Shown here: in pieces, positions 23,859 to 62,464 of the stretch
Position numbering within the stretch: the first letter of the stretch is position 1
Layout of the letters: every line of letters starts with the position of its first letter
Source: Candidatus Woesearchaeota archaeon
GTDB taxonomy: Archaea; Nanobdellota; Nanobdellia; Woesearchaeales; SM23-78
Length of the DNA stretch: 64,000 nucleotides
Assembly: GCA_016932315.1 (NCBI GenBank)
Contig: JAFGDD010000004.1
Coordinates: forward strand, 125,466-189,465
Reading direction: 5' to 3'
Made by a program: the position numbers and the translations under genes
Notes under the pieces: model-generated
The model's input: the letters and a program-made list of their open reading frames with translations, nothing else
The model's database searches: none
Told to the model about the DNA's origin: nothing

Positions 23859-26213
23859 TTATTCATATCCGTCGTGCTCTGTCCTTCTGATTATCTCGTT
23901 CTGCAGGGCTGGTGATAAGTCGCAGAAGTAGTCGCTGTAGCCTGCTACTCTTACGATTAGGTCGCGGTACTTGTCAGGGCTCTGTTGTGCTTCTCTGAGC
24001 GTGTCTGCGCTTACGACGTTGAACTGCACGTGATGGCCGTCCATCTTGAAATAAGAGCGTACAAGGTTCAGTAATCCATTCATTCCTGCTTCATCAGAGA
24101 GTAAGCTCGGTGTGAATTTCTGGTTGAGCAAGGTTCCTCCTGTTCGGACATGGTCCATCTTGCCTGCAGACTTGAATACTGCTGTCGGCCCTTGCCTGTC
24201 TGCTCCTTGCACCGGAGATATTCCTTCTGATAATGGCTCATAAGCTTTTCTGCCGTCAGGCAATGCTCCAGTTACTTTTCCGAAATAAACATGCACAGTG
24301 GTAGGCAATAAGTTAATTCTGTATTTGCCGTTTCTCTGGTTGGGCTTGTTGTCAATTGCAGAATAATATATCCAGAATACACTTTTCATTATATTGTCTG
24401 CATAATCATCATCATTGCCGTATTTTGGCGTCTTGTTCAAAAAAGTTTGTCTTAATTCTTCATTATCACTGAAATCCTTCTTTAGTGCTTTGATTAACTC
24501 ATCCATGCTTATTTTTCTCCTATCAAAAACATTGTACTTTATCGAGGCAAGGGAGTCTGTTATGCTTCCCATCCCAACGCCTTGTATGTAGCTAGTATTG
24601 TACCTCGCTCCTCCTTCATTGTAGTCCTTGCCGTTTTTTATGCAGTCATCAATCAGTATTGATAAAAACGGTGCAGGCATTTCTTTTGCATAAATATTCT
24701 CTATGACATCATTGCCTTTCATCTTTATATTAATGAAATGATTGACTTGCTTTTCATAGGCTTGCAATAATTCATCAAATGATTTGAATTCAGAAGCTTC
24801 TCCTGTCTTCAAGCCAATTTGTTTTTGCGTCCTTGGGTCAAATCCGTTATTAAGCGTTATCTCAAGTATTTTCGGCAGGTTGAAGTAGCCTGTTAAGATA
24901 TAAGCTTCTTTTCCAAATGCTCCTGTTTCTACGCAGCCGCTTGCCCCTCCGTTGCGCGCATCTTCGATGCTCTTTCCAGCTCTCAGCATCTCCTGGATAA
25001 TCGCATCAGTGTTGAATATGCTTGGCTGGCCAAAGCCTGTCTTGACAATCTTCAGCACTCTGCGCAAATAAGCATCAGGGTTCTTCTTGCTGACCTGAGC
25101 CATGGAACTCGGCTGGAGAAGCCTCATCTCCTCGATAACATCGAGTATCTTGAAAGTTAATGGGTTGACTGCGTCAGAGCCATCTTCTTTTAATCCGCCA
25201 ACATTTATCAGGCAGAAATCAGTGTATGTTCCGCTCTCCTCAGCAGTCACTCCGACCTTTGGAGGTGCTGGCTGGTTGTTGAACTTAATCCAGAAAGCCT
25301 GCAATAATTCTATTGCTTTCTCCTCTGTTAATGTTCCGTCTTCCAATCCTTTCTTGTAAAAAGGATAAAGATGCTGGTCTAATCTGCCAGGATTAAATGA
25401 ATCCCAGGTGTTAAGCTCAGTAATAACTCCTAAATGCACGAACCAGTAATACTGCAGTGCTTCATGAAAATTCCTTGGTGCATGAGCAGGCACCCATGAG
25501 CAGGTTTCAACTATCTTCTCAAGCTCTTTCTTCCTTTCAGGATCAGTCTCTTTTGATGCAAGCTTTAATGCTTCATCGCCGTAGCGCCAGGCATAAGCAA
25601 TTATTGCGTCAGCAGCAATGCTCATGGCTTTGAGTTCTTCTTTTTTCTCTTTTGCATAAGGATATTCTGGTGTTATGCTTTCATTAATCTCCTTCTTGAA
25701 ATCAAGCATTCCCTTCTTGTAAATCTTGTCATCAAGAACAGTATGGCCTGGTGCTCTTTGCTCCATGAACTCTGTGAATATTCCCGCCTCATAAGCATCC
25801 TTCCATTCAGGAGTCATCTCGCTGAAGATCTTGTCCCTGAGGGTTTTGCCGTACCAAAAAGGAAGAACAATATTTGCCTGCTTTTTTTCTGTCTCAGGGC
25901 TTACTGCAAAAGGAATCTTTTCCCTTGAGTTAAGTATGGTAAAGTCTCTCAAGCTATGAGCTGTGAGCTCTGGATAAGTAGGAGTTGCTTTAGGCGCAGA
26001 GCCTCTCTCACCTACTATAAGCTCGCCGTCATTGATGCAGACGGTCTTGTTCTTCAATATGTAATCAAAAGCCCTGGCTCTCTTTACAGGAACAGATAGT
26101 TTCTCATCCTTGCTTTGCTCATAGAATTCTGTCAATAAAAGTGCTCTTTCAAGATCAATATGAGGCTTTGCATTCAGGCTTTGCCCCCTTAACTTCTTTA
26201 TGCGCTCATTCAT
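23859..26213 (-). CDS. Glycyl-radical enzyme (PFL2/glycerol-dehydratase/CutC-like family)
   Basis: 784 aa. Catalytic-loop Cys in GASGCVETGAF (the GCVE type found in dehydratase/lyase GREs, not PFL's CC) and the C-terminal glycine-radical motif RVAGYSDYF. Confidence 0.85.
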   Translation of the reverse strand: MNERIKKLRGQSLNAKPHIDLERALLLTEFYEQSKDEKLSVPVKRARAFDYILKNKTVCINDGELIVGERGSAPKATPTYPELTAHSLRDFTILNSREKIPFAVSPETEKKQANIVLPFWYGKTLRDKIFSEMTPEWKDAYEAGIFTEFMEQRAPGHTVLDDKIYKKGMLDFKKEINESITPEYPYAKEKKEELKAMSIAADAIIAYAWRYGDEALKLASKETDPERKKELEKIVETCSWVPAHAPRNFHEALQYYWFVHLGVITELNTWDSFNPGRLDQHLYPFYKKGLEDGTLTEEKAIELLQAFWIKFNNQPAPPKVGVTAEESGTYTDFCLINVGGLKEDGSDAVNPLTFKILDVIEEMRLLQPSSMAQVSKKNPDAYLRRVLKIVKTGFGQPSIFNTDAIIQEMLRAGKSIEDARNGGASGCVETGAFGKEAYILTGYFNLPKILEITLNNGFDPRTQKQIGLKTGEASEFKSFDELLQAYEKQVNHFINIKMKGNDVIENIYAKEMPAPFLSILIDDCIKNGKDYNEGGARYNTSYIQGVGMGSITDSLASIKYNVFDRRKISMDELIKALKKDFSDNEELRQTFLNKTPKYGNDDDYADNIMKSVFWIYYSAIDNKPNQRNGKYRINLLPTTVHVYFGKVTGALPDGRKAYEPLSEGISPVQGADRQGPTAVFKSAGKMDHVRTGGTLLNQKFTPSLLSDEAGMNGLLNLVRSYFKMDGHHVQFNVVSADTLREAQQSPDKYRDLIVRVAGYSDYFCDLSPALQNEIIRRTEHDGYE

Positions 26214-30155: not shown

Positions 30156-31832
30156 CTACTTAAAGTATGCATTCAAGACGTATTGCTGCACCATCCTGTG
30201 GGTGTTAAAGAATGAGCCGTTAATGGCTATGGCGTGCTTCATCATCTCAACCCATTTGTCACGCTCCTCATAAAACCTTGGGATGATGATGTATTCTAGC
30301 TTGGTGTACATGTCCTCTGCATCTTCTTCAGGAACATTTTCTTTTGAATCATTAGGATGAGCTCCTATGCTCCAACCAGTAATGTTTTCTATATGCCCTT
30401 CAAGCCACCAGCCGTCCAGAACAGAGAAATGAAGCACTCCGTTATGTGCTGCTTTCATTCCAGAAGTGCCTGAAGCTTCCTGAGGCCTTTGAGGAGTGTT
30501 AAGCCAGAGATCAACGCCAGACACAAGGAGCTTGGCTGTTGCAATGTCATAATTTTTCACATAGCAAACCTTTATTTTGTGGCTGACTTCCTGCATCTTG
30601 CTTATTATTCTCTTAAGAAGCTCTTTGCCAGCGGTGTCTTTTGGATGGGCTTTTCCTGCATATATTATCTGAATGCCTTTGAACTTCTCTGCAATTTTCA
30701 TTAACCATTTAATATCAGAGAAGAGCAGGTCTCCTCGCTTATAAGTAGCTACTCTCCTTGCGAATCCTATGGTAAAAATTTCTTCCTTCATATCTGCTTT
30801 GTAGTGCTTATTAACCCAGCCAATGAGTTGCTGCTTTGCCTTCTGATGAGCACTCCAGATTTCTTCCTTTGGAATGCCAAGAACATACCTCAAGCTGAAA
30901 GGGTCATATTCCCAGCCAGGAAGATATTTATCAAATAGTTTCTGAAAAGATTCGCAAATCCAGTAGTATGAATGCACTCCATTTGTTATTGATTCTATAT
31001 GATAGCCAGGGAACATGTTCCTTGATACTTCGCCATGCTTTTTTGCAACTCCGTTGATGAACTTGCTGAACCTTAACCCCAGATAAGTCATGTTGAGCTT
31101 GTTGTTGATGTACAATTCCTCACGTATATCAGGCAGAATATTTTCTCCGAGCATGTGCTCTGCTAATTCCCTTGGAAATTGGTCATGGCCCGCGGGCACT
31201 GGCGTGTGGGTTGTGAAGACGCATCTCTTCCTTACTTCTTCTATCGGCTCATCAGCTTGTGAGTATCGTTTGTAAAGCTCTAATGCTAATATTGCAGAAT
31301 GCCCTTCATTCATGTGGTGTTTCTGAATGTTGCAGCACCCAATGCTCTCAAGCATCTTTACTCCACCGATGCCTAATATTATTTCCTGAGCCAGCCTGTA
31401 CTTCTCATCAAAACCATAAAGATACTGAGTTATTCTTCTATCATAATCAGAGTTTCCAGGCAAGTCAGTGTCAAGAAAAATTATTGGCACTATGCGTCCT
31501 GTGCTACCCATAAGATTATAAACCCAGGCTTTTATCATGACTCGTCTGCCTTCAAGCATTATTTCTGCTTGCTGTGGCATTGGATGAAGGAAAGCAGAAG
31601 GGTCCCAATTCATCTCATGCTCTACCTGATTGCCATCAGCATCCAGCTCCTGCTTGAAATAGCCTTTCTTGTAAAGCAGAGTCACTCCGACGACGGGCAG
31701 CTTCAGGTCTGCGCAGCTGCGCAAAGTGTCTCCTGCAAGAATGCCCAATCCTCCAGAATAAGTAGGTATATCTGGGTTCATTCCTATCTCCATGCTGAAA
31801 TAAGCCACAGATAAATCAGCAAAATTAACCAT
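30156..31832 (-). CDS. glgP: Alpha-glucan (glycogen/maltodextrin) phosphorylase, GT35 short archaeal form
   Basis: PLP-lysine motif EASGTSGMKAAHNG and the GT35 core. 558 aa. Confidence 0.85.
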   Translation of the reverse strand: MVNFADLSVAYFSMEIGMNPDIPTYSGGLGILAGDTLRSCADLKLPVVGVTLLYKKGYFKQELDADGNQVEHEMNWDPSAFLHPMPQQAEIMLEGRRVMIKAWVYNLMGSTGRIVPIIFLDTDLPGNSDYDRRITQYLYGFDEKYRLAQEIILGIGGVKMLESIGCCNIQKHHMNEGHSAILALELYKRYSQADEPIEEVRKRCVFTTHTPVPAGHDQFPRELAEHMLGENILPDIREELYINNKLNMTYLGLRFSKFINGVAKKHGEVSRNMFPGYHIESITNGVHSYYWICESFQKLFDKYLPGWEYDPFSLRYVLGIPKEEIWSAHQKAKQQLIGWVNKHYKADMKEEIFTIGFARRVATYKRGDLLFSDIKWLMKIAEKFKGIQIIYAGKAHPKDTAGKELLKRIISKMQEVSHKIKVCYVKNYDIATAKLLVSGVDLWLNTPQRPQEASGTSGMKAAHNGVLHFSVLDGWWLEGHIENITGWSIGAHPNDSKENVPEEDAEDMYTKLEYIIIPRFYEERDKWVEMMKHAIAINGSFFNTHRMVQQYVLNAYFK

Positions 31833-31913
31833 TTAACCACCTTTTTTTTTACCCTTTAAATAAGTTATGTTACTCTGCAAAGTAGAAATAAGAAAATAAG
31901 AAGGAAAATGAAT

Positions 31914-32095
31914 GGGCCCGGCCAGACTTTCACGAGCTTTTGCTGTTTTGCAAAAGCCATTTGAACTGGCGACCACCACCGCATTCAAAGAGCAGAATCT
32001 ATCTGCTATTATGTGAAGGTGGGATCATTTACGGCGCAAAAGGCGGAAGCTCAAAAGAGCTTGCTCTTTTGTTGTAGCCGCTAGACCACGGGCCC
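31914..32095 (-). tRNA. tRNA-Val (anticodon CAC) interrupted by three introns: D-loop ~21/22 (45 nt), canonical 37/38 (30 nt), T-loop 59/60 (33 nt). The spliced product is 74 nt
   Basis: The minus-strand transcript is GGGCCCGUGGUCUAGCGGCUA [45-nt intron] AAUGAUCCCACCUUCACA [30-nt intron] CGGUGGUGGUCGCCAGUUCAAA [33-nt intron] UCUGGCCGGGCCC. The spliced cloverleaf has the following elements:
- a 7-bp all-Watson-Crick acceptor stem (GGGCCCG/CGGGCCC)
- U8, A14, G18G19 and A21
- an anticodon arm CCACC-UUCACAC-GGUGG with U33 and A37
- variable loop UGGUC
- a T-arm GCCAG-UUCAAAU-CUGGC
The canonical intron forms a textbook BHB. Exon nucleotides 32-35 (UUCA) pair with intron UGAA positioned 2 nt before the 3' splice site. 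A 6-bp AGCAGA/UCUGCU helix is adjacent. Both splice sites sit in 3-nt bulges. The T-loop intron uses the same UUCA:UGAA central helix plus an 8-bp GCUUUUGC/GCAAAAGC helix. A U-rich tract follows the discriminator A. Confidence 0.65.
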
Positions 32096-32154
32096 TTTTG
32101 AGAATAAGAATTTTTAGTGTTTTATAAAGCTTTTTCAAAAAAACAAGTTAATAT

Positions 32155-32916
32155 CTATTGATAAAATCCTTTTTCAAGCAAAGAGCTGGTTTCAGCCAGT
32201 GCTATTATACAGCGGTCTAGCTTATCTGTTTTAAAGCCAGCAGTTCTGATCCACGCAACAGATTTTTCAATTAAGTGAATGCCGTCTTCTAATGATAACA
32301 CGGCCCCGGCATAATCATATATTTTTATGTTTCTCATTCGCTCCCTGTTGTTTTCTTCTGTTTCTTTAGTATTGTAAAATGCAATGCTCTTGTGCTTTGG
32401 CAGTCCTAGACGGAGCTGCATTGTATGAACAAATTCTTCAGAGCATCCGTTGCTGTACTCCCAATCTTCGTTCATATGAACTTCAGTAGCCATTTCAGAA
32501 ATAATGCTTAGCCACAATGCCTGGAAATGTGCCTGCTCCCATTCCTGCCTTGCAGGAGATAATTCGGCAGGAAAAATTATAGGGATACTTACACGCTTCT
32601 CAAGGTTCTCAAGGAAATTATATCCTTCGTGGTAATTATATGCAAAAGACTTTTCTTTAATCTCAGTTTCTATCTTCTTAGCAGTTTCTTTTGTCCATTG
32701 AAACCTGCCTAAGCGTTCATATTTCTGCTCGTACATGTACTTGCCAGACGTTATTGGCGTGCTGATATAAGCCAATCCATCTAGGTGATGTATGCTTCTG
32801 AGAACTCGCATGATGTTATGAACCGTTGCCGTCTGAGGAGTCTCTTTAGTCCAGACTTCTGTTTTGTATTTGTACCATAAAGAAATATTTTCGAGCGTTT
32901 TTGATTCAACAGCCAT
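32155..32916 (-). CDS. Hypothetical protein
   Basis: 253-aa ORF with coding-like composition. No recognised motif. Confidence 0.4.
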   Translation of the reverse strand: MAVESKTLENISLWYKYKTEVWTKETPQTATVHNIMRVLRSIHHLDGLAYISTPITSGKYMYEQKYERLGRFQWTKETAKKIETEIKEKSFAYNYHEGYNFLENLEKRVSIPIIFPAELSPARQEWEQAHFQALWLSIISEMATEVHMNEDWEYSNGCSEEFVHTMQLRLGLPKHKSIAFYNTKETEENNRERMRNIKIYDYAGAVLSLEDGIHLIEKSVAWIRTAGFKTDKLDRCIIALAETSSLLEKGFYQ

Positions 32917-32979
32917 GCTTTACCCCCTTACCACTCTTAAGAGATAACTTTAATAATATAAATGTTTCTTTTTTAGAAA

Positions 32980-33831
32980 TCAGGATAAAAATACCATTTT
33001 TTCTTTTATAAATTTTTCATTCCAGCACTGCTCCTTGAGGCTGCAGGAAGAGCACTTCTTCTTATTGTCGCAAATCAGAGGCAAATCCTTTCCCTGGAAG
33101 AGTTCAATAATGGAATCCCTGGTTTGGAGCACGTGCTTCTCAAGGAAAGGGTTCATCATGACGTGGCGAGCCTCGTTTATGTCGAGGTACTTGACAAAAG
33201 CTTCTCTTACAAAGAACCTGTTCTTCTCCAACAGCATGATATAAGCGCCTGCCTGCAGCTTATGACCTGGCCACACACCTGTTTTCGGAGCAGAGCCGGT
33301 CTTGAGCTCATAAGGAACAACTTCCTTAACTAGCTTGTTATCATAAACTTCTAGCTGATCAATAACTCCTTTAAGCATTAAATCTTCAGATTCAACATAA
33401 TATTCTGACTCAATCTTTGGGCTGAGCATCTTCCACAATTCCTCTCCAAAGACTTTGTTCTTTTTCATGAACTCGTGCAGGTTAAGAGCCTTTTGCTGAG
33501 ACTCCTGTAAGACTCGAGGCCATGCTTCCTTAAAGAGTTCTGTAAGAGAAACTTTTACTTCTGCCAGCTTGCTCTTATTCCTGACAATAGTATCCTTGAG
33601 AACATCTGAGTGAAGCTTCTTATACTTCTCAATCAGTTCTACATGATTGATTTCATTTTTAATGCTCTTAACAAGCTCAGCCTCTGCCTTGCTAGCCCGC
33701 TCATGAACAGCATGCCTAACGCTGCCCTTGACAACAGCTTCCCTTGGAACAACTGCAAGCTTAAGAACATGCTCAAGAAAAAGCTTTCTAGGACAATAAT
33801 CATAGCTAGAGAGCAGACTAACAGCAATCAT
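32980..33831 (-). CDS. Cas4/RecB-like PD-(D/E)xK nuclease with a 4-Cys cluster (DUF83-like), standalone
   Basis: N-terminal YCPRK Cys and C-terminal C-x6-C-x2-C-x5-C (CDNKKKCSSCSLKEQC). The nuclease core shows YELKTG and HKLQAGAYIML. Confidence 0.55.
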   Translation of the reverse strand: MIAVSLLSSYDYCPRKLFLEHVLKLAVVPREAVVKGSVRHAVHERASKAEAELVKSIKNEINHVELIEKYKKLHSDVLKDTIVRNKSKLAEVKVSLTELFKEAWPRVLQESQQKALNLHEFMKKNKVFGEELWKMLSPKIESEYYVESEDLMLKGVIDQLEVYDNKLVKEVVPYELKTGSAPKTGVWPGHKLQAGAYIMLLEKNRFFVREAFVKYLDINEARHVMMNPFLEKHVLQTRDSIIELFQGKDLPLICDNKKKCSSCSLKEQCWNEKFIKEKMVFLS

Positions 33832-33950
33832 GATAAGATGAAATGACTTAAAGAACTAGTTTATAAGGCTTACGCTAAGATGTCCAGTGGTGTAGCCAGC
33901 GGATTCAAAAGCCTCAGCTTTTGTTATTCAGCGCGGATAAAGAAAGATTA

Positions 33951-34697
33951 TTAGTGCTCAACAGGTTCATATATTGCTTTGAGCGCATCAGCAATGAGTT
34001 TTGCAGTGTATTTCGTATTTGCATCTTTTCGTAAGAATGAAGAAATTTCTAGCTGGAAAGAGTGATCGCTTGTTCCTGCGTGATACTGAACGCCGTCTTG
34101 CCTAGACCAAGCTGCAAAATTCTCCCCCACACCGACTTTTAGATTATGATCATCAGACAGACGTTCCTCTAATGTTTGTTTTAGCTTTTCAATATCCTCT
34201 CTATTAGCTCTTAAGACGCCAGTATTGTTTCCAGCTGCAGGATGCCTGTCGCTTCTCCCTTGCGTTCCCTTTAACCTGCCTTGATGATATTTAGCGCCAA
34301 ATCCAATATCAATTCCTATTTTTTCAGAATTATCCCCCGCCCCATGGATATAGACCACGATTGCCCTGCCGTCGCCGTATGAGCGGGCGTGTTCTGCAAA
34401 TTCTTTGACATGATCATAGAATTCCTTCATATGAGGATGTTTTTTGCTCCATAAATATTTTTGTTGGCCTGAAGACCACGAGAGCTTATTAAAATCCTCT
34501 ACAAGATGCGGCTTTGCCTCAGCATTTGAATTAGAAGGCTTAATGTATTTATTATTGACCACTAAAGAAGCATTCAATTGCCGGGCAATTTCCTCAGCGA
34601 TTTCTTTTGTCCTTAAATCATCCCCTGCTGCATGGGGCGCAACCACGACAAATCTGGAAGAGCCTTTGCTTCTTAAACCATAGTTGGTCTGAATCAT
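33951..34697 (-). CDS. Hypothetical hydrolase, N-formylglutamate-amidohydrolase / poly-gamma-glutamate-hydrolase (PghP)-like fold
   Basis: N-terminal FVVVAPHAAGDDLRTKEIAEEIA resembles the metal-binding start of PghP/FGase-fold proteins. HGAGDN appears downstream. The family assignment is tentative. Confidence 0.3.
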   Translation of the reverse strand: MIQTNYGLRSKGSSRFVVVAPHAAGDDLRTKEIAEEIARQLNASLVVNNKYIKPSNSNAEAKPHLVEDFNKLSWSSGQQKYLWSKKHPHMKEFYDHVKEFAEHARSYGDGRAIVVYIHGAGDNSEKIGIDIGFGAKYHQGRLKGTQGRSDRHPAAGNNTGVLRANREDIEKLKQTLEERLSDDHNLKVGVGENFAAWSRQDGVQYHAGTSDHSFQLEISSFLRKDANTKYTAKLIADALKAIYEPVEH

Positions 34698-34776
34698 ATC
34701 TTTTTTCTTAAAAATATAAGTTTATATACTTTTCTTTTAAATTAAATTTATATATTCACGCATCCTTACAAGCTTC

Positions 34777-35811
34777 ATGAAACTCCCTGAAGTCAAGAAA
34801 TATCTGAAAAAAGAAAAGCTTGATGCTATTGTGTTGTTCAACAAGTCCCCTAATTTTAATTATTTTGTCGGTGAGGAATTTGAGCACGGCATGATGTTCT
34901 TGACAAAGAAAGGCAATTATTTGTTTCTCTCTCTGCTTTATTCGCCTAAGTTTTCAGGCTTTAAGGTGGTGCACTGGAACAAGTTCAAGGAAGAATTCAA
35001 GGCTTTTGCAAGGAAGAACAGGATAAAGAGAGCTGGCATTGATAATAATAACCTGCTGGTGAAGCAGAAATCATTCCTAAGAAAACATTTCGAGCTGGCA
35101 GACTGCTCAGAATTCCTTACAGATTTAAGGCAGAGCAAGACAGAAGATGAAATTAAGAGGATTAAAGCTGCCTGCAAGGTGACTGACAAGATATTCTCTC
35201 TGATATTAAAAAACTTCAGCAAATTTAAGACAGAAAAAGACATTATGACATTCATCAAGATAAAGGCACTGGAGCTTGCGGACGGGATTTCATTCGAGCC
35301 AATAGTAGCCAGCGGAAGCAATGCAGTAGTTGCGCACCATGTGCCGGATGCCAAGCAATTAAAAAGAGGCTTTATGGTATTGGACTTTGGGGTTAAGTAC
35401 AAAGGATACCTTTCAGACATGACAAGGACAGTATATATTGGCAAGCCGAGCGAAAAGGAAAAAGCAATCTATAACAAGGTTCTTGAGATACAGGAAGCCT
35501 GCATCGCAAAAGCAAAAATAGGATTAGAAGCTGAAAAGCTTTACAAACATTCCCTGAAATTATTCGGCGATGACGCAAAATACTTTATCCATGGCTTAGG
35601 GCACGGAATAGGAGTGGAAATACATGAAAAGCCAAGCCTTGGGAAATCAAAGGACGCACTCGTAAAGAATGATGTGTTCACCATAGAGCCAGGCTATTAC
35701 AACCAGAAGACAGGAATAGGAATAAGAATAGAAGATGATGTTCTGCTGCTGGGAAAGAAGAAAGAAGTATTGACGAAGAGCAGTAAAAAATTAATCTGCG
35801 TAAAACCATAA
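34777..35811 (+). CDS. M24-family metallopeptidase (Xaa-Pro aminopeptidase/prolidase-like)
   Basis: Pita-bread fold motifs DFGVKYKGYLSDMTRT, HGLGHGIGVEIHE and IEPGYY. Confidence 0.8.
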   Translation: MKLPEVKKYLKKEKLDAIVLFNKSPNFNYFVGEEFEHGMMFLTKKGNYLFLSLLYSPKFSGFKVVHWNKFKEEFKAFARKNRIKRAGIDNNNLLVKQKSFLRKHFELADCSEFLTDLRQSKTEDEIKRIKAACKVTDKIFSLILKNFSKFKTEKDIMTFIKIKALELADGISFEPIVASGSNAVVAHHVPDAKQLKRGFMVLDFGVKYKGYLSDMTRTVYIGKPSEKEKAIYNKVLEIQEACIAKAKIGLEAEKLYKHSLKLFGDDAKYFIHGLGHGIGVEIHEKPSLGKSKDALVKNDVFTIEPGYYNQKTGIGIRIEDDVLLLGKKKEVLTKSSKKLICVKP

Positions 35812-44378: not shown

Positions 44379-44490
44379 TGTGCGCTCAGAAGTTACTTCC
44401 GTTCTTCATAGCGTTAGCTCAGTGGGTGTTCACTTCTTCATTGCGCGATAATAGAAAAGAAACAACTTTATTTAAATCTTTACAATAGTC

Positions 44491-44591
44491 GAAAGCTGCC
44501 AGTGCCACCCCGAAGGGGGCAGCCCCCGTCACAGCAACCTTGCACCTTGACATAAATGTCTGCGGTGCAGTTGCAGGTTGCGGCAGCTTTC
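44491..44591. repeat. GC-rich structured element 'A' (family A/B/C), abutting the stop codon of the Trm5-like gene
   Basis: 10-bp closing inverted repeat gaaagctgcc...ggcagctttc. Core gccaccccgaagggggcagcccccgtcacagc, where a G5 run can pair with either the upstream C4 or the downstream C5 run. There is an internal second hairpin. Confidence 0.5.
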
Positions 44592-46372
44592 TATAATATT
44601 TCAACATCAACGCAAATCCGGTATTCCCTCGGAGCATTCTGCCCGCACTTGACTGTGTTAAGAACCTTGAATTTCTTGCCTGCTTTGTCGCAGGATTTCT
44701 TTATCTTCTCAACGCTCTTCTCAAATTCATCTTCTTTCTGGAAGTCATAGAAGTGTATTATCGTCCCTTTATGGCTCGCTGCAAGCGCAACATCAAGGTA
44801 GTCTGCTGCTGATTTTGGCAATGGCATTAGTATCCTGTCGAATGTCTTCTGGAACTTGCTTAGATAATGCCAGGATGATATCATCTCCTCATTTTTTACT
44901 TCATCAGAGCCATTAACCTCTGTCACGCCAAGATTAACCAATGGCAGAATGCCTGTAATATCGAGGCGTGATGATTCTGAAAGCTTGCCGCTGTGAACAT
45001 TATCTTTGTAGTCATTCAGGTGAAAGTAGGTGTTGCAGGATTTTTGTATTTCCTTTATCAGTTCAAAGCATTCTGGATTAGAGTAGAGGTAGAGCATGTG
45101 GCAAGTGTCTATGCACATGTTCTTGAGCCCTGTTGCTTTTATCACCCTGAAAATGCTTTCTTTTGCTGAGAAGAGGAAGATGTGGTTGTTCTCAAAGTAT
45201 ATTTTATCATAGTATTTACTAAAGGTTTTTATGTTTTCAATCATTCCTTCTTCCATGGATTCGCTTTCCTCGCTTTTCCTCTTGCTGTTTACAGGATGAA
45301 TTATGAGGCTGACATCAAATTCTTTTATTAGTGAAATCATTTTTTGGCAGAGCTCAGTATTTGCATTCTGGCTTATCATGTCCATGCTTTCCTTGGCTTC
45401 AAGAGGCTGGTGAACCATTACTTTCTTGCCTTTTTGCTGCAATTGCTTGATTGTCTTTTTCAAGCTCTCAAAGTTTTCCCTGAAATCATTGCCAAACGTG
45501 TGCAGCTCGATTATCAGAGGGTTCTCTTTCATCCTGGTTCGCAGTTGCTCAGGATTAATTGCTGACTTCAATCCGATAATTCTCTTGTAAAAGCCAGGCA
45601 GCGCAGTCTTCACATCCTCGTTAATCAAGAATGCATTATTTATCTTGTTAAATCGAAGGTTTTCAATGCCGTACTTGTGAGCCACAGGGTTAATCTCAAT
45701 GCCATAAACATATTTTGCAGGAGTGTTTTTTGCGATGGTGCAGACATAAGGCGCGCAGCCAGAGAACATCACCAGAACATTTTCTTGCTTTCCTGATTTT
45801 GCTGCTTTGTTAATAAACTCCACAATCCTTTTCCTTTCTGTGCTCAGCCTGGGTGAGAAATAGACTTGCTCAACGTCAAGCTTCAGGACAACATTGTTCT
45901 CCTTGTAAACTGCTTCCTTGGTTTTAATGCCAGCGAGGTGCTCAAGCTTTTGTATCCTGAAAACTCCTTCATGCCTTCCTTTCTTAAGAACAGTCTTGAT
46001 ATTCTTGTTAATCTTCAAAGCCTCTTCTGCAATTATTTTTTCTTTCTTCTCAAGCTCTGCAGGTATCTCAAGAATAGCAATGTTGCCGATGATGTCCATG
46101 GATCTCTTCAGAATCTTTAAATCATCCTTGTCAAGCTTTTTTTTAAGAGAATTCTTCAGATTAGTTGGTAATGAAATCTTTTTTAATGCCTTATTAACAA
46201 TTTTGTAACTATTTTTGAATTTTTTCTTAATGGGAAAATAAACAAATCCTTTTTGCCTGAGGATCAGGTGTTCTTTGTCAAACAATCCTTTGGCTATTAT
46301 CTCCTTCTTAGCCTTCTCTGCTTCCTTAATAGGCACTTTGATGCATAGCATGGCTTTAATGGAGAAAATCAC
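44591..46372 (-). CDS. Trm5/Taw2-family tRNA methyltransferase carrying a ~240-aa inserted endonuclease-IV-like (xylose-isomerase-like TIM barrel) domain
   Basis: - **Trm5 motifs:** DIIGNIAILEIP, VYFSPRLSTER, motif I VLVMFSGCAPYV, VYGIEINPVAHKYGIENLRFNKINN, and C-terminal DRILMPLPKSAADYL...VKCGQNAPREYRICVDV.
- **Insert position:** between residues ~269 and ~510.
- **Insert motifs:** LIIHP, MIENI, NMCIDTCHMLY and FHLNDYKDNVHSGK, paralleling Nfo's NFHPGSH, VIEN, VCIDTCHAF and HLNDAK. Confidence 0.6.
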   Translation of the reverse strand: MIFSIKAMLCIKVPIKEAEKAKKEIIAKGLFDKEHLILRQKGFVYFPIKKKFKNSYKIVNKALKKISLPTNLKNSLKKKLDKDDLKILKRSMDIIGNIAILEIPAELEKKEKIIAEEALKINKNIKTVLKKGRHEGVFRIQKLEHLAGIKTKEAVYKENNVVLKLDVEQVYFSPRLSTERKRIVEFINKAAKSGKQENVLVMFSGCAPYVCTIAKNTPAKYVYGIEINPVAHKYGIENLRFNKINNAFLINEDVKTALPGFYKRIIGLKSAINPEQLRTRMKENPLIIELHTFGNDFRENFESLKKTIKQLQQKGKKVMVHQPLEAKESMDMISQNANTELCQKMISLIKEFDVSLIIHPVNSKRKSEESESMEEGMIENIKTFSKYYDKIYFENNHIFLFSAKESIFRVIKATGLKNMCIDTCHMLYLYSNPECFELIKEIQKSCNTYFHLNDYKDNVHSGKLSESSRLDITGILPLVNLGVTEVNGSDEVKNEEMISSWHYLSKFQKTFDRILMPLPKSAADYLDVALAASHKGTIIHFYDFQKEDEFEKSVEKIKKSCDKAGKKFKVLNTVKCGQNAPREYRICVDVEIL

Positions 46373-52873: not shown

Positions 52874-53602
52874 CTATGGTCTCATCCATTTAATCTCATA
52901 ATATGTCACATCGCCTTCGTCGTCAACTATTGCCATGAGAAGCCTTTTCTTGGTGCTGTGCGCTACCCTGTTCTTGGCTGCAAAATCATACCAGGTTAGT
53001 GTTTCTCCTTCGTGGACTGGGAATACTATCCATCTAGCATGGTCTTCGCCAGGCTTCACTCCTCTGTCATAAACCCTGAAATCTGCACCAAACTTTAACG
53101 CTGTTTTTACAATGTAGCCCCTGTTCCTCATATCCTTGAACACGCAATACCTTATCCAGAAATTAGGCTCCACCTTTTTGGCTTTTTGTATGAACGCTTC
53201 AGCATTAAATTTTTTCTTTGCTTCGCTTATCTCAAGCTTTCCCTTTTCAAGCAAATACAATGCTTCTGGAAGTGAGAGCTGGACTTTTCCTCCATCAATA
53301 ATCTGGCCGTAAGCGCTCTTAGCATAAAAGTTCCTTGCCTCATCGTTGGATTCAGTAAGCACTCTTTCCCTGGCAAACATGGCTTTTACTATCTCTTTTT
53401 TCTTGCCTTCCTTATCCTCTTCTTTTTCAGGTTGTTCAGGCGCAAGTGTCTTCTCATCCTCAGCAGCAGGCTCATACTTGACAGGCGCTGATTCAAGCTT
53501 TTCTTCCTCCTGTATGGACTTTATTTCTGCCTCTAACTCAGTCTTCTTGCTCTTAGGCTTCTCCTTCTTTGATTTCTTCTTTGGCATGCTTATTCCTAGC
53601 AT
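52874..53602 (-). CDS. endA: tRNA-splicing endonuclease catalytic subunit (EndA) with a Lys/Glu-rich N-terminal extension; the ORF-track extension to 53947 is probably spurious
   Basis: C-terminal catalytic domain with ALKFGADFRVYDRG and HARWIVFPV...TKKRLLMAIVDDEGDVTYYEI. The proposed start MLGISMPKK at 53602 (or 53587) avoids overlap with rnz on the opposite strand. Confidence 0.75.
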   Translation of the reverse strand: MLGISMPKKKSKKEKPKSKKTELEAEIKSIQEEEKLESAPVKYEPAAEDEKTLAPEQPEKEEDKEGKKKEIVKAMFARERVLTESNDEARNFYAKSAYGQIIDGGKVQLSLPEALYLLEKGKLEISEAKKKFNAEAFIQKAKKVEPNFWIRYCVFKDMRNRGYIVKTALKFGADFRVYDRGVKPGEDHARWIVFPVHEGETLTWYDFAAKNRVAHSTKKRLLMAIVDDEGDVTYYEIKWMRP

Positions 53603-53774: not shown

Positions 53775-54677
53775 ATGGAAATAACAATGCTGGGCACTAG
53801 CTGTATGGTGCCTACTAAAGAAAGGAATGTGCAAGGAATATTTGTAGACTTCAAAGGAGATGGTTTGCTGTTCGACTGCGGCGAAGGAACCCAAAGGCAG
53901 ATGAATATTGCAGGCATCAACAGGAACAGGATTAGGAAGATATTCATAACTCACTGGCACGGAGACCATGTTGCAGGATTGATCGGGTTATTGCAGACCA
54001 TAAGCAATAATGAGAATCCTCAGAAAGTAATGCTCTTTGGACCAAGGGATACCAAGGAGAGGATTGCTCATCTCATGAGGAGCGTGAGCTTTGAAGATAA
54101 TCGAATGGAGCTCGAAGTCAAAGAGATTAATCCGAATGGTGTTGAAAAGGTTTCTGAAGCAGAAGAATATTATGTTGAAGCAGCTTATCTTGACCACAAA
54201 ATACCATGCCTAGGCTATTCTTTAGTTGAGAAGGACAAGCGCAAGATAAACATGGCAAAAGCAAAAAAGCTTGGCTTACGCGAAGGGCCGCTCATAGGAA
54301 AACTACAGGCAGGCCACAGCGTGAATTTTAAGGGAGCAACCATAACGCCTGACGATGTCTCGCACATAGAGAAAGGAAAGAAGATAGCAATAATACTTGA
54401 CACTTTGCCGTGCAAGAACGCTTATGACTTAGCAAAAGAAGCAGACTTGCTGATTGCAGAATCAGCCTACACTTCTGATTTAGAAGAGAAGTCACTAGAG
54501 TACAAGCACATGACTACAAAGCATGCTGCACTCATAGCCACGACTGCAAATGTGAAGAAGCTAATAATCACTCATTTCTCGCAAAGATACAAGACTGCCA
54601 AGGAATTAGAGGAGGAAATCAAGACTTTCTTCCCTAACAGCCAGGCAGCTTTTGATTTCATGAAGATAAAATTATAA
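53775..54677 (+). CDS. rnz: Ribonuclease Z (tRNA 3'-processing endonuclease); the ORF-track start at 53346 is over-extended
   Basis: MEITMLGTSCMVPTKERN...LFDCGEGTQRQ...IFITHWHGDHVAGL are classic RNase Z motifs. The upstream 143 codons overlap endA antisense and look non-coding. Confidence 0.8.
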   Translation: MEITMLGTSCMVPTKERNVQGIFVDFKGDGLLFDCGEGTQRQMNIAGINRNRIRKIFITHWHGDHVAGLIGLLQTISNNENPQKVMLFGPRDTKERIAHLMRSVSFEDNRMELEVKEINPNGVEKVSEAEEYYVEAAYLDHKIPCLGYSLVEKDKRKINMAKAKKLGLREGPLIGKLQAGHSVNFKGATITPDDVSHIEKGKKIAIILDTLPCKNAYDLAKEADLLIAESAYTSDLEEKSLEYKHMTTKHAALIATTANVKKLIITHFSQRYKTAKELEEEIKTFFPNSQAAFDFMKIKL

Positions 54678-62293: not shown

Positions 62294-62344
62294 AACAACA
62301 GATTATGCATTCCTGTTTTTAAGCTTTGTTAAATTGGGTTCTAC

Positions 62345-62464
62345 TCGAAAAGTTGCCTTGCCCACCCCGAAGGGGGCGACCCCCGGTCAAACAGCCAGCA
62401 CAAGAACTCAACGCAAGCGTTTTCGTTCTTGTTGCAGTTGTTGGCTGTGGCAACTTTTCTCGAG
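62345..62464. repeat. GC-rich structured element 'B' (family A/B/C)
   Basis: 14-bp closing inverted repeat ctcgaaaagttgcc...ggcaacttttctcgag. Core gcccaccccgaagggggcgacccccggtcaaacagcc is nearly identical to element A. There is an internal second hairpin. Confidence 0.5.

What the first reader, a model, noticed from the sequence alone, without database searches (positions are those of the whole stretch)
31914..32095. tRNA-Val(CAC) gene split by three introns (D-loop, canonical and T-loop positions)
- **Context and termini:** a 182-nt GC-rich island in AT-rich intergenic DNA begins with GGGCCCG and ends with CGGGCCC followed by a U-tract on the minus strand.
- **Spliced cloverleaf:** removing three segments of 45, 30 and 33 nt leaves a 74-nt sequence that folds into a near-ideal archaeal tRNA cloverleaf with anticodon CAC.
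- **Canonical intron:** it satisfies the strict bulge-helix-bulge rule. Exon nucleotides 32-35 (UUCA) pair with intron UGAA, both splice sites fall in 3-nt bulges, and a 6-bp intron helix follows.
- **T-loop intron:** the 59/60 intron reuses the same UUCA:UGAA central helix.
- **Significance:** three introns in one tRNA is rare. Outside Thermoproteales, Korarchaeota and a few DPANN lineages it has been undescribed. Such genes are routinely missed by standard tRNA finders. The splicing endonuclease (52874-53602) and RNase Z genes lie 21 kb away.
Basis: seen in the sequence. Interest (0 to 1): 0.8.

Follow-up and report, generated by a model that had tools for sequence, protein, structure and literature searches.

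The report
Three-intron tRNA-Val gene in Woesearchaeota
This is a real valine tRNA gene from a tiny uncultured archaeon, cut into four pieces by three short introns; the type is already known, but close relatives carry different combinations of the same three introns.

Summary
Window 31913-32095 (minus strand) encodes tRNA-Val(CAC) interrupted by three bulge-helix-bulge (BHB) introns.

- **Detection:** ARAGORN and Rfam see no tRNA in the unspliced 64 kb. The spliced sequence is a perfect 73-nt cloverleaf.
- **Chance:** it scores 78.7 bits against 46 intronless tRNA-Val genes. The best of 5,000 shuffled or random controls scored -11.5.
- **Correction:** the D-loop intron is 47 nt at position 20a/21, not 45 nt. 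Two syntenic orthologs lack this intron and read GGCTATGAT. Three others start the intron with C or T.
- **Source:** a Candidatus Woesearchaeota (DPANN) genome, so it lies within the lineages where disrupted tRNAs are already reported.
- **Orthologs:** eight syntenic orthologs carry different subsets of the same three introns, and three of them carry all three. In all 20 intron instances the central 4-bp helix is fully paired, and each of the three sites has one compensatory exon-intron position.
- **Turnover:** genes with identical exons differ in intron content.
- **Enzyme:** the EndA endonuclease in the window lacks all three known broad-specificity loops.

Verdict: a real gene and a new member of a known kind. 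Interest is moderate. No RNA-level evidence was available.

The parts
32120..32127 (-). Archaeal TATA box TTTATAAA, at -32 to -25 relative to tRNA position 1, preceded by a purine-rich GAAAAAGC (BRE-like)
   Evidence: Read directly from the sequence. The same GAAAA(A/G)TTTATAAA motif lies about 30-38 nt upstream of all eight orthologs. Its promoter function is inferred.
32076..32095 (-). Exon 1: tRNA positions 1-20a (GGGCCCGUGGUCUAGCGGCU)
32029..32075 (-). Intron 1, 47 nt, at position 20a/21 in the D-loop. Central helix is GCGG/CCGU. The 3' bulge is AA|A. The 5' splice site CU|A sits in a 6x2 internal loop, so the motif is relaxed.
   Evidence: The boundaries are fixed by orthologs L152, L243, L247, L249 and L254.
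32012..32028 (-). Exon 2: positions 21-37 (AUGAUCCCACCUUCACA), containing anticodon CAC
31982..32011 (-). Intron 2, 30 nt, at the canonical position 37/38. Strict hBHBh' motif: helix UUCA/UGAA, bulges CA|U and UG|C, and an inner helix of 2 bp, one mismatch, then 6 bp.
   Evidence: The unconstrained minimum-free-energy fold already forms this motif.
31960..31981 (-). Exon 3: positions 38-59 (CGGUGGUGGUCGCCAGUUCAAA)
31927..31959 (-). Intron 3, 33 nt, at position 59/60 in the T-loop. The outer helix is the T-stem. Central helix is UUCA/UGAA, with bulges AA|U and AG|U. A 9-bp inner helix is offset by 2 unpaired nt (CG) on the 3' strand.
31913..31926 (-). Exon 4: positions 60-73 (UCUGGCCGGGCCCA), including discriminator A. 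CCA is not encoded.
31885..31912 (-). T-rich trailer (UUCAUUUUCCUUCUUAUUUUCUUAUUUC), a likely oligo-T termination region
   Evidence: All orthologs also have T-rich trailers. The terminator function is inferred.
52874..53587 (-). tRNA-splicing endonuclease EndA, alpha-type. It has both Pfam domains, the catalytic Tyr and His aligned with M. jannaschii (a conserved Lys-rich motif at the third catalytic position was read by eye), a Lys/Glu-rich N-terminal tail, and no CSL, ASL or NEQ-type loop insertion.
   Evidence: NCBI annotates a 237-aa tRNA-intron lyase.
53778..54677 (+). Metallo-beta-lactamase fold protein, probably RNase Z (3' trailer removal)
   Evidence: Lactamase_B_2 E=9e-14. The tRNase Z endonuclease family scores exactly at its cut-off of 27 bits.

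Best explanation
**What it is.** Window 31913-32095 (minus strand) is a functional tRNA-Val(CAC) gene of a Candidatus Woesearchaeota (DPANN) archaeon. It is transcribed from its own TATA promoter as a precursor of about 183 nt with four colinear exons (20, 17, 22 and 14 nt). Three protein-spliced BHB introns interrupt it:
- 47 nt at position 20a/21 in the D-loop
- 30 nt at position 37/38
- 33 nt at position 59/60 in the T-loop

**How each intron is recognised.** At each site, four exon bases just upstream of the 5' splice site pair with four intron bases just upstream of the 3' splice site. The exon bases are positions 15-19, 32-35 and 54-57. Each cut falls two bases into a 3-nt bulge.

**Inferred pathway.**
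1. The EndA endonuclease encoded in the same window cuts all six sites.
2. An RtcB-type ligase joins the exons.
3. RNase P and RNase Z trim the ends.
4. CCA is added, giving a 73-nt tRNA plus CCA.

**Evolution.** The three sites behave as intron hot spots in this clade. Introns are gained, lost or replaced faster than the exons change.

**Shown versus inferred.** Shown in silico: gene identity, splice sites, helix geometry, covariation, synteny, and presence of EndA. Inferred: transcription, actual splicing, order of events, and the ligase.
For: **Spliced product**
- ARAGORN calls it tRNA-Val(cac), 73 nt.
- The profile score is 78.7 bits, against a control maximum of -11.5.

**Orthologs**
- Eight syntenic orthologs lie 11-16 nt downstream of the same Cas4-like gene.
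- All splice to a 73-nt Val(CAC) tRNA.
- D/anticodon/T intron lengths are 46/30/28, 29/46/30, 31/30/46, 47/14/0, 46/46/0, 15/44/0, 0/0/139 and 0/46/28.

**Exons evolve as a tRNA**
- On the six distinct spliced sequences, 120 of 120 cloverleaf cells are paired.
- Three pairs show compensatory changes. Slid controls give 18-48% pairing.

**Central helix**
- It is fully paired in all 20 intron instances.
- Each of the three sites has one compensatory position:
  - D-loop pair 2: C-G, U-G, U-A
  - anticodon pair 1: U-A, U-G, C-G
  - T-loop pair 4: A-U, G-U, G-C
- Register control over 16, 29 and 15 distinct introns:

| Site | Pairs in the proposed register | Best shifted register |
|---|---|---|
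| D-loop | 63/64 | 38/64 |
| Anticodon | 101/116 | 64/116 |
| T-loop | 57/60 | 34/60 |

**Folding**
- A fold forced to hold all three motifs plus the cloverleaf stems gives -73.8 kcal/mol. The minimum free energy is -80.7 and the shuffle mean is -53.

**Expression signals and enzyme**
- A conserved TATA motif and T-rich trailers flank all nine genes.
- EndA has both domains. Its best solved-structure match is the N. equitans catalytic subunit, E = 2e-38.

**Assembly**
- An independent assembly has the identical sequence.
Against: - There is no RNA-level evidence for transcription or splicing.
- In the window gene, the D-loop 5' splice site lies in a 6x2 internal loop rather than a clean 3-nt bulge. 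The T-loop inner helix is offset by 2 nt.
- In pairwise alignments, the EndA lacks all three insertions linked in the literature to cleavage of relaxed motifs.
- The all-BHB fold is 6.9 kcal/mol above the minimum free energy.
- Only 64 kb of the genome was seen. A second Val(CAC) gene, an EndA beta subunit and the ligase could not be checked.
Confidence: 0.9

Rival explanations
1. The D-loop intron is 45 nt (GGCUA|C...GCCGUA|A) with central helix CGGC/GCCG. The mature RNA would be 74 nt plus the discriminator, with a 10-nt D-loop.
For: In the window the exon-intron helix is 5 bp (GCGGC/GCCGU). The register shifted by one pair therefore also gives a 4-bp helix with 3-nt flanks. ARAGORN also accepts 45-nt variants.
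Against: - All 46 distinct intronless homologs are 73 nt (one is 72 nt) with an 8-nt D-loop, AGCGG(C/U)UA.
- Orthologs without this intron read GGCTATGAT (L152, L243).
- The fifth pair, C20-G, is absent in L247, L249 and L254. Their first intron base is C or T, which forces the cut after position 20a.
- The helix formed by exon positions 15-19 is paired in 15 of 16 distinct D-loop introns.
Confidence: 0.06
2. The gene is a decaying or non-functional tRNA pseudogene disrupted by insertions. It is not spliced into a working tRNA.
For: - Standard finders see nothing.
- Two of the three motifs are relaxed in the window copy.
- tRNA-Val(UAC) could read GUG codons (general knowledge of wobble decoding).
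Against: - The cloverleaf is perfect.
- Exons keep 81-96% identity across relatives whose Cas4-like neighbour is only 68-79% identical.
- Compensatory changes occur in the tRNA stems and in all three exon-intron helices.
- The promoter motif and synteny are conserved in nine genomes.
Confidence: 0.03
3. The inserts are another kind of element, such as group I or II introns, insertion sequences, or the pieces of a split or permuted tRNA, rather than EndA-spliced BHB introns.
For: Group I introns do occur in archaea, including DPANN. This rests only on the title and abstract of PMC6125680 as listed.
Against: - The inserts are 30-47 nt, far too short for group I or II introns or insertion sequences.
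- There were no Rfam hits.
- The exons are colinear and contiguous, so the gene is neither split nor permuted.
- The splice geometry fits BHB exactly.
Confidence: 0.01

Closest known systems
Multiple-intron tRNA genes of Thermoproteales (Sugahara et al. 2008, as reviewed in PMC4033280, and described in PMC8450103)
   Same: They have up to three EndA-spliced BHB introns per tRNA gene. Non-canonical D-arm and T-arm positions occur alongside 37/38. Simple tRNA finders miss them.
   Different: - The lineage here is DPANN Woesearchaeota, not Crenarchaeota.
- The Thermoproteales enzyme is an (alpha-beta)2 heterotetramer with the Crenarchaea-specific loop. Here a single alpha-type EndA is seen, and it has no such loop.
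ARMAN-2 pre-tRNA-Cys and pre-tRNA-Pro with introns at 59/60 (PMC3239211)
   Same: This is also a DPANN organism. The intron is at the same T-loop position 59/60, with both relaxed and strict BHB types.
   Different: - ARMAN-2 uses an epsilon2 three-unit EndA with the ASL loop.
- That paper describes two T-loop introns, or a single intron, rather than the D-loop + anticodon + T-loop triple seen here.
Canonical archaeal 37/38 intron with a strict hBHBh' motif
   Same: Intron 2 of the window gene fits it exactly. Exon bases 32-35 pair with the intron, there are two 3-nt bulges, and there is an inner helix.
   Different: Nothing for intron 2. Introns 1 and 3 use the same geometry transplanted onto D-loop bases 15-19 and T-loop bases 54-57.
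DPANN tRNA gene disruption surveyed by Kaneta et al. 2018 (PMC5829648)
   Same: That paper reports alpha4-type EndAs and a marked increase in disrupted tRNA genes, including multiple-intron genes, in DPANN. It also notes incomplete predicted tRNA sets. One Woesearchaeota and one Pacearchaeota genome were included.
   Different: - That paper links the disruption to an L3 (Nanoarchaeum/ARMAN-2-type) loop.
- The EndA here has the same Tyr-His spacing as M. jannaschii, as do 117 of its 120 closest homologs. It therefore has no L3-type insertion.
Intron presence/absence heterogeneity in Caldiarchaeum subterraneum populations (PMC3293823; known to me only from the title and abstract listed)
   Same: Closely related genomes differ in whether a tRNA gene is disrupted.
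   Different: The lineage is different. Here three fixed sites in one orthologous gene show all combinations, as well as replacement of one intron family by another.

Membership tests
Archaeal EndA-spliced (BHB) tRNA intron | Removing the insert restores a canonical cloverleaf tRNA | tested here: met
   ARAGORN calls the spliced sequence tRNA-Val(cac), 73 nt. All 20 of 20 stem pairs form. The profile score is 78.7 bits against a control maximum of -11.5.
Archaeal EndA-spliced (BHB) tRNA intron | A 4-bp central helix between exon and intron, with both cuts two bases into flanking 3-nt bulges | tested here: met
   All three window introns form the helix 4 of 4 in that register. Across 16, 29 and 15 distinct introns, pairing is 63/64, 101/116 and 57/60. 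No shifted register comes close.
Archaeal EndA-spliced (BHB) tRNA intron | Strict hBHBh' form, with outer and inner helices directly abutting both bulges | tested here: inconclusive
   - Met for the 37/38 intron.
- T-loop intron: the inner helix is offset by 2 nt.
- D-loop intron: the 5' site lies in a 6x2 internal loop, and the 3' bulge is flanked by only a short or irregular outer helix.
- Orthologs L247 and L249 have inner helices that abut the bulge cleanly at the same sites.
Archaeal EndA-spliced (BHB) tRNA intron | Exon-intron covariation that preserves the central helix | tested here: met
   Each of the three sites has one position with changes on both sides, plus G-U intermediates. All 80 cells in the nine genes are standard pairs.
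Archaeal EndA-spliced (BHB) tRNA intron | A splicing endonuclease is encoded by the genome | tested here: met
   The protein at 52874-53587(-) matches PF01974 at 1e-29 and PF02778 at 2e-14. It matches solved EndA structures down to E = 2e-38.
Archaeal EndA-spliced (BHB) tRNA intron | An RNA ligase (RtcB) is present to join the exons | not tested
   None of the 26 window proteins scanned against Pfam or NCBIfam was RtcB. The rest of the genome was not available.
Archaeal EndA-spliced (BHB) tRNA intron | The spliced RNA is observed, or cleavage is shown in vitro | not testable with these tools
   There is no transcript data and no wet-lab assay.
Multiple-intron tRNA gene (Thermoproteales-type) | Two or three BHB introns in one colinear gene, at least one at a non-canonical position | tested here: met
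   Three introns lie at 20a/21, 37/38 and 59/60.
Split or permuted tRNA gene | Exons are encoded at separate loci or in permuted order | tested here: not met
   All four exons are colinear within 183 nt.
EndA with a known broad-specificity loop (L1/CSL, L2/ASL, L3/NEQ loop) | An insertion at the corresponding site, relative to M. jannaschii EndA | tested here: not met
   - The protein shows a 10-residue gap against the S. tokodaii CSL region.
- It shows gaps against ARMAN-2 residues 158-168.
- It shows a 6-residue gap against N. equitans residues 90-98.
- Its Tyr-His spacing equals that of M. jannaschii.
- The spacing is 9 residues in 117 of 120 homologs.
- These are pairwise alignments only; no structure was modelled.

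The most novel reading that the evidence does not exclude
In this Woesearchaeota clade, three fixed sites in tRNA-Val (20a/21, 37/38, 59/60) are hot spots of active intron gain, loss and replacement, and this runs faster than exon substitution. Genes with 100% identical exons carry 29/46/30, 31/30/46 or 0/0/139 nt introns.

The relaxed motifs are cut by an alpha-only EndA that lacks every known broad-specificity loop. That enzyme instead carries a clade-conserved Lys/Glu-rich N-terminal tail. This would point to an undescribed way of achieving broad substrate recognition, and possibly to intron mobility.
Probability: 0.25. Interest if true: 0.6.

Novelty: new member of a known kind. Interest (0 to 1): 0.38.

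Why it matters
- **Annotation.** The gene is invisible to ARAGORN and Rfam. MAG annotation and completeness estimates based on tRNA counts could therefore under-count tRNAs in Woesearchaeota. The literature already notes incomplete tRNA sets in DPANN.
- **Intron evolution.** The nine-genome series at one syntenic locus is a compact natural experiment in tRNA intron turnover. All combinations of three introns occur, intron families are replaced at fixed sites, and exons stay identical while introns differ. How archaeal tRNA introns spread is an old question, and this series bears on it.
- **Enzymology.** Relaxed D-loop and T-loop motifs coexist with an EndA that has none of the known specificity loops. 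This gives a concrete biochemical question.

None of this changes the known picture of archaeal tRNA splicing.

Tried and rejected
- **ARAGORN on the window.** The default run and the intron modes found nothing. A lowered threshold (-ps80) gave 90 implausible calls with kilobase-sized introns.
- **Rfam.** Gathering threshold and E<=10 gave no tRNA, only weak snoRNA-like noise.
- **Metagenome scan with the 16-mer of exon 2.** Of 120 stretches, 119 were chance matches in unrelated DNA. Only L152 was a real homolog.
- **Exact-protein look-ups.** The phosphorylase and the M24 peptidase were not on record.
- **tblastn of window ORFs against the 119 tRNA loci.** This was uninformative for taxonomy. 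A SecY search settled the lineage instead.
- **Locus L256/L257 (P0154).** It has no tRNA after the Cas4-like gene.
- **Second EndA-like (beta) gene.** A tblastn search of the window found none.
- **The 45-nt D-loop model.** It was considered and rejected on comparative grounds.
- **Pseudogene, group I/II intron and split-gene readings.** These were rejected (see rival explanations).
- **Covariance model.** I did not build one. The tools cannot search a custom spliced sequence, so ARAGORN and a profile alignment served instead.

Full report
**1. What is in the sequence**

The minus strand of window 31913-32095 reads GGGCCCGUGGUCUAGCGGCU...UCUGGCCGGGCCCA. It lies in a 322-nt gap between two minus-strand genes. 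One is a 253-aa ORF (32155-32916) and the other an alpha-glucan phosphorylase (30156-31832). GC is 51% against 32-37% in the flanks. The exons are 64% GC and the introns 33-47%.

ARAGORN finds no tRNA anywhere in the 64 kb, even in intron mode. Rfam finds none at gathering threshold or at E<=10. The 183-nt RNA folds at -80.7 kcal/mol, z = -6.7.

**2. The spliced product is a tRNA, far beyond chance**

A scan of 185,579 species genomes with the 21-mer of exon 1 returned 119 archaeal tRNA-Val loci. Seventy-three of these genes are intronless, giving 46 distinct sequences of 73 nt (one of 72 nt). Every one has the D-loop AGCGG(C/U)UA.

I built a position profile from them and aligned it to the window gene, allowing long insertions. 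The result was:
- insertions after positions 20a (47 nt), 37 (30 nt) and 59 (33 nt)
- anticodon CAC
- 20 of 20 stem pairs
- a score of 78.7 bits, against a maximum of -11.5 in 2,000 shuffles of the region and -23.3 in 3,000 random 183-nt windows

ARAGORN draws the spliced 73-mer as a perfect tRNA-Val(cac) cloverleaf.

**3. Source organism**

The window's SecY is 100% identical to an NCBI protein of a Candidatus Woesearchaeota archaeon on a 290,509-bp contig. Dozens of relatives share 70-91% identity. An independent Logan assembly of run SRR13394437 reproduces window 31913-34906 exactly.

**4. Orthologs settle the splice sites**

Homologs of the neighbouring Cas4-like gene led to contigs from relatives. 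A metagenome scan added L152. In eight relatives a tRNA-Val(CAC) gene sits 11-16 nt after the Cas4-like stop codon. Only the window genome has the 253-aa ORF inserted between them.

All the genes splice to 73 nt. Intron lengths are:

| Gene | D-loop 20a/21 | Anticodon 37/38 | T-loop 59/60 |
|---|---|---|---|
| Window | 47 | 30 | 33 |
| L252 | 46 | 30 | 28 |
| L247 | 29 | 46 | 30 |
| L249 | 31 | 30 | 46 |
| L241 | 47 | 14 | 0 |
| L245 | 46 | 46 | 0 |
| L254 | 15 | 44 | 0 |
| L243 | 0 | 0 | 139 |
| L152 | 0 | 46 | 28 |

The evidence that fixes the D-loop intron at 20a/21 and 47 nt is:
- L152 and L243 lack the D-loop intron and read GGCTATGAT.
- L247, L249 and L254 begin that intron with C or T, so A21 must come from the 3' exon.

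In the window the exon-intron helix happens to be 5 bp (GCGGC/GCCGU). That is why a register shifted by one pair also looked acceptable.

**5. BHB geometry and covariation**

At each site, the four exon bases before the 5' bulge pair with the four intron bases before the 3' bulge. The exon bases are positions 15-19, 32-35 and 54-57. Each cut falls two bases into a 3-nt bulge.

In the nine genes this helix is fully paired in all 20 intron instances. Each of the three sites has one position that changes on both sides:
- D-loop pair 2: C-G, U-G, U-A
- anticodon pair 1: U-A, U-G, C-G
- T-loop pair 4: A-U, G-U, G-C

I then added the other tRNA-Val loci and tested the register:

| Site | Distinct introns | Pairs in the proposed register | Best shifted register |
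|---|---|---|---|
| D-loop | 16 | 63/64 | 38/64 |
| Anticodon | 29 | 101/116 | 64/116 |
| T-loop | 15 | 57/60 | 34/60 |

The exons also evolve as a tRNA. On six distinct spliced sequences, 120 of 120 cloverleaf cells pair and three pairs are compensatory. Slid controls give 18-48% pairing.

**6. Anatomy of the window copy**

- **Intron 2 (37/38)** is a strict hBHBh' motif and forms in the unconstrained minimum-free-energy fold.
- **Intron 3 (59/60)** has the T-stem as its outer helix, UUCA/UGAA as the central helix, and both bulges. Its 9-bp inner helix is offset by two unpaired bases.
- **Intron 1 (20a/21)** has the helix GCGG/CCGU and a 3' AAA bulge. Its 5' site lies in a 6x2 internal loop.
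- A fold forced to hold all three motifs plus the cloverleaf stems gives -73.8 kcal/mol. That is 6.9 above the minimum free energy and far below the shuffle mean of -53.
- Orthologs L247 and L249 have cleanly abutting inner helices at the same sites.

**7. Expression signals**

TTTATAAA lies at -32 to -25 (window 32120-32127), preceded by GAAAAAGC. All eight orthologs have GAAAA(A/G)TTTATAAA about 30-38 nt upstream. There it is embedded in the last codons of the Cas4-like gene. All nine genes have T-rich trailers. CCA is not encoded. These roles are inferred from what is known of archaeal promoters.

**8. The enzyme**

The protein at 52874-53587(-) has both EndA domains. Its closest solved structure is the N. 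equitans catalytic subunit (E = 2e-38), followed by M. kandleri and M. jannaschii. The catalytic Tyr and His align with M. jannaschii. It keeps an acidic DDEGD loop like the M. jannaschii homotetramer, which suggests an alpha4 enzyme (inference). No second EndA-like gene is in the window.

Pairwise alignments show none of the three insertions tied to cleavage of relaxed motifs (loop definitions from PMC3488258, and PMC5829648):
- a 10-residue gap against the crenarchaeal CSL
- gaps against the ARMAN-2 ASL
- a 6-residue gap against the N. equitans loop

In 117 of its 120 closest homologs the Tyr-His spacing is 9 residues, as in M. jannaschii. In 119 of 120 there is a Lys/Glu-rich N-terminal extension, median about 54 aa. 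How this enzyme handles the relaxed sites is an open point.

**9. Intron turnover**

- L247, L249 and L243 have identical mature sequences but intron sets 29/46/30, 31/30/46 and 0/0/139.
- L252 and L152 have identical exons, yet differ in having the D-loop intron and in the family of their 37/38 intron.
- Intron families are recognisable. One example is the D-loop family shared by the window, L252, L245 and L241 at 72-91% identity.
- The families are not distributed like the exon similarities.

**10. Comparison with what is known**

- Archaeal tRNA genes with up to three BHB introns are established, mainly in Thermoproteales (PMC4033280; PMC8450103).
- Introns at 59/60 are described in the DPANN organism ARMAN-2 (PMC3239211).
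- Kaneta et al. 2018 surveyed one Woesearchaeota and one Pacearchaeota genome. They reported marked tRNA gene disruption in DPANN, and incomplete predicted tRNA sets that imply hidden disrupted genes (PMC5829648).
- My literature searches found no detailed account of three-intron genes in Woesearchaeota. The library covers only open-access text.
- In the genome scan, three further genes (L018, L028, L032) carry introns at the same three sites. They are labelled 'uncultured Methanosarcinales'. L100, from a MAG (binchicken_co32_389) that carries the same label, has a D-loop intron closely resembling those of the Nanobdellota and Nanoarchaeia loci L101 and L088, so I doubt the labels.

**11. Verdict**

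Two corrections apply: a 2-nt boundary shift, and a downgraded rarity claim. It is a new member of a known kind. The added value is the ortholog series showing intron turnover, and the EndA without known specificity loops. Nothing was tested at the RNA level.

Noticed in passing
window 44484-44592 and 62344-62464: Two copies of an unannotated structured element of about 110-120 nt.
- Both have a similar closing stem.
- Both contain an identical 15-mer, CCCCCTTCGGGGTGG, on the minus strand. This forms a UUCG-loop hairpin. There were 2 matches against 0.02 expected.
- They differ in a variable second hairpin.
- Minimum free energy is -50 to -56 kcal/mol, z about -5 to -6.
- There is no Rfam hit, and the 15-mer is absent from the 257 fetched loci.
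   Followed up: partly
window 32155-32916 (-): A 253-aa ORF with no Pfam match sits between the Cas4-like gene and the tRNA. This is true only in the window genome. In eight relatives the tRNA starts 11-16 nt after the Cas4-like stop codon.
   Followed up: partly
window 52874-53587 (-), N-terminal ~70 residues: EndA carries a Lys/Glu-rich low-complexity N-terminal tail (MPKKKSKKEKPKSKK...). The tail is conserved in 119 of 120 closest homologs, with a median length of about 54 aa. The known L1, L2 and L3 specificity loops are absent.
   Followed up: partly
L241, L243, L245, L247, L249, L252, L254, L152: ~30-45 nt upstream of the tRNA: In the relatives, the tRNA's TATA motif (GAAAAATTTATAAAAG) lies inside the last codons of the Cas4-like gene, which encode ...NEKFIKE.... 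The same DNA therefore appears to serve as both coding sequence and promoter.
   Followed up: partly
L243 (Ga0031655_10001558), downstream of the Cas4-like gene: This ortholog has no D-loop or anticodon intron. Instead it has a 139-nt intron at 59/60, which is unusually long for a BHB intron. Its content was not examined.
   Followed up: no
L013, L018, L028, L032, L068, L072, L080, L100: These contigs are deposited as 'uncultured Methanosarcinales archaeon' but carry DPANN-like multi-intron tRNA-Val genes. The D-loop intron of L100 closely resembles those of the Nanobdellota and Nanoarchaeia loci L101 and L088. The taxonomic labels look doubtful.
   Followed up: partly
window 23859-26213 (-): A full-length glycyl-radical enzyme scores 1,305 bits against the trans-4-hydroxy-L-proline dehydratase model. 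This is unexpected metabolism for a DPANN genome. Relatives also have a PFL-like gene nearby.
   Followed up: no
window 44384-44445 (-): There is a weak Rfam match to the archaeal C/D-box sRNA family sR1 (23.5 bits, E = 0.076, below the gathering score). It lies next to the first copy of the structured element.
   Followed up: no
window 44591-46372 (-): A Trm5b/Taw22-like tRNA methyltransferase is 593 aa long. That is nearly twice the model length of 330 aa, and the match is confined to residues 8-312. The C-terminal half is unassigned.
   Followed up: no
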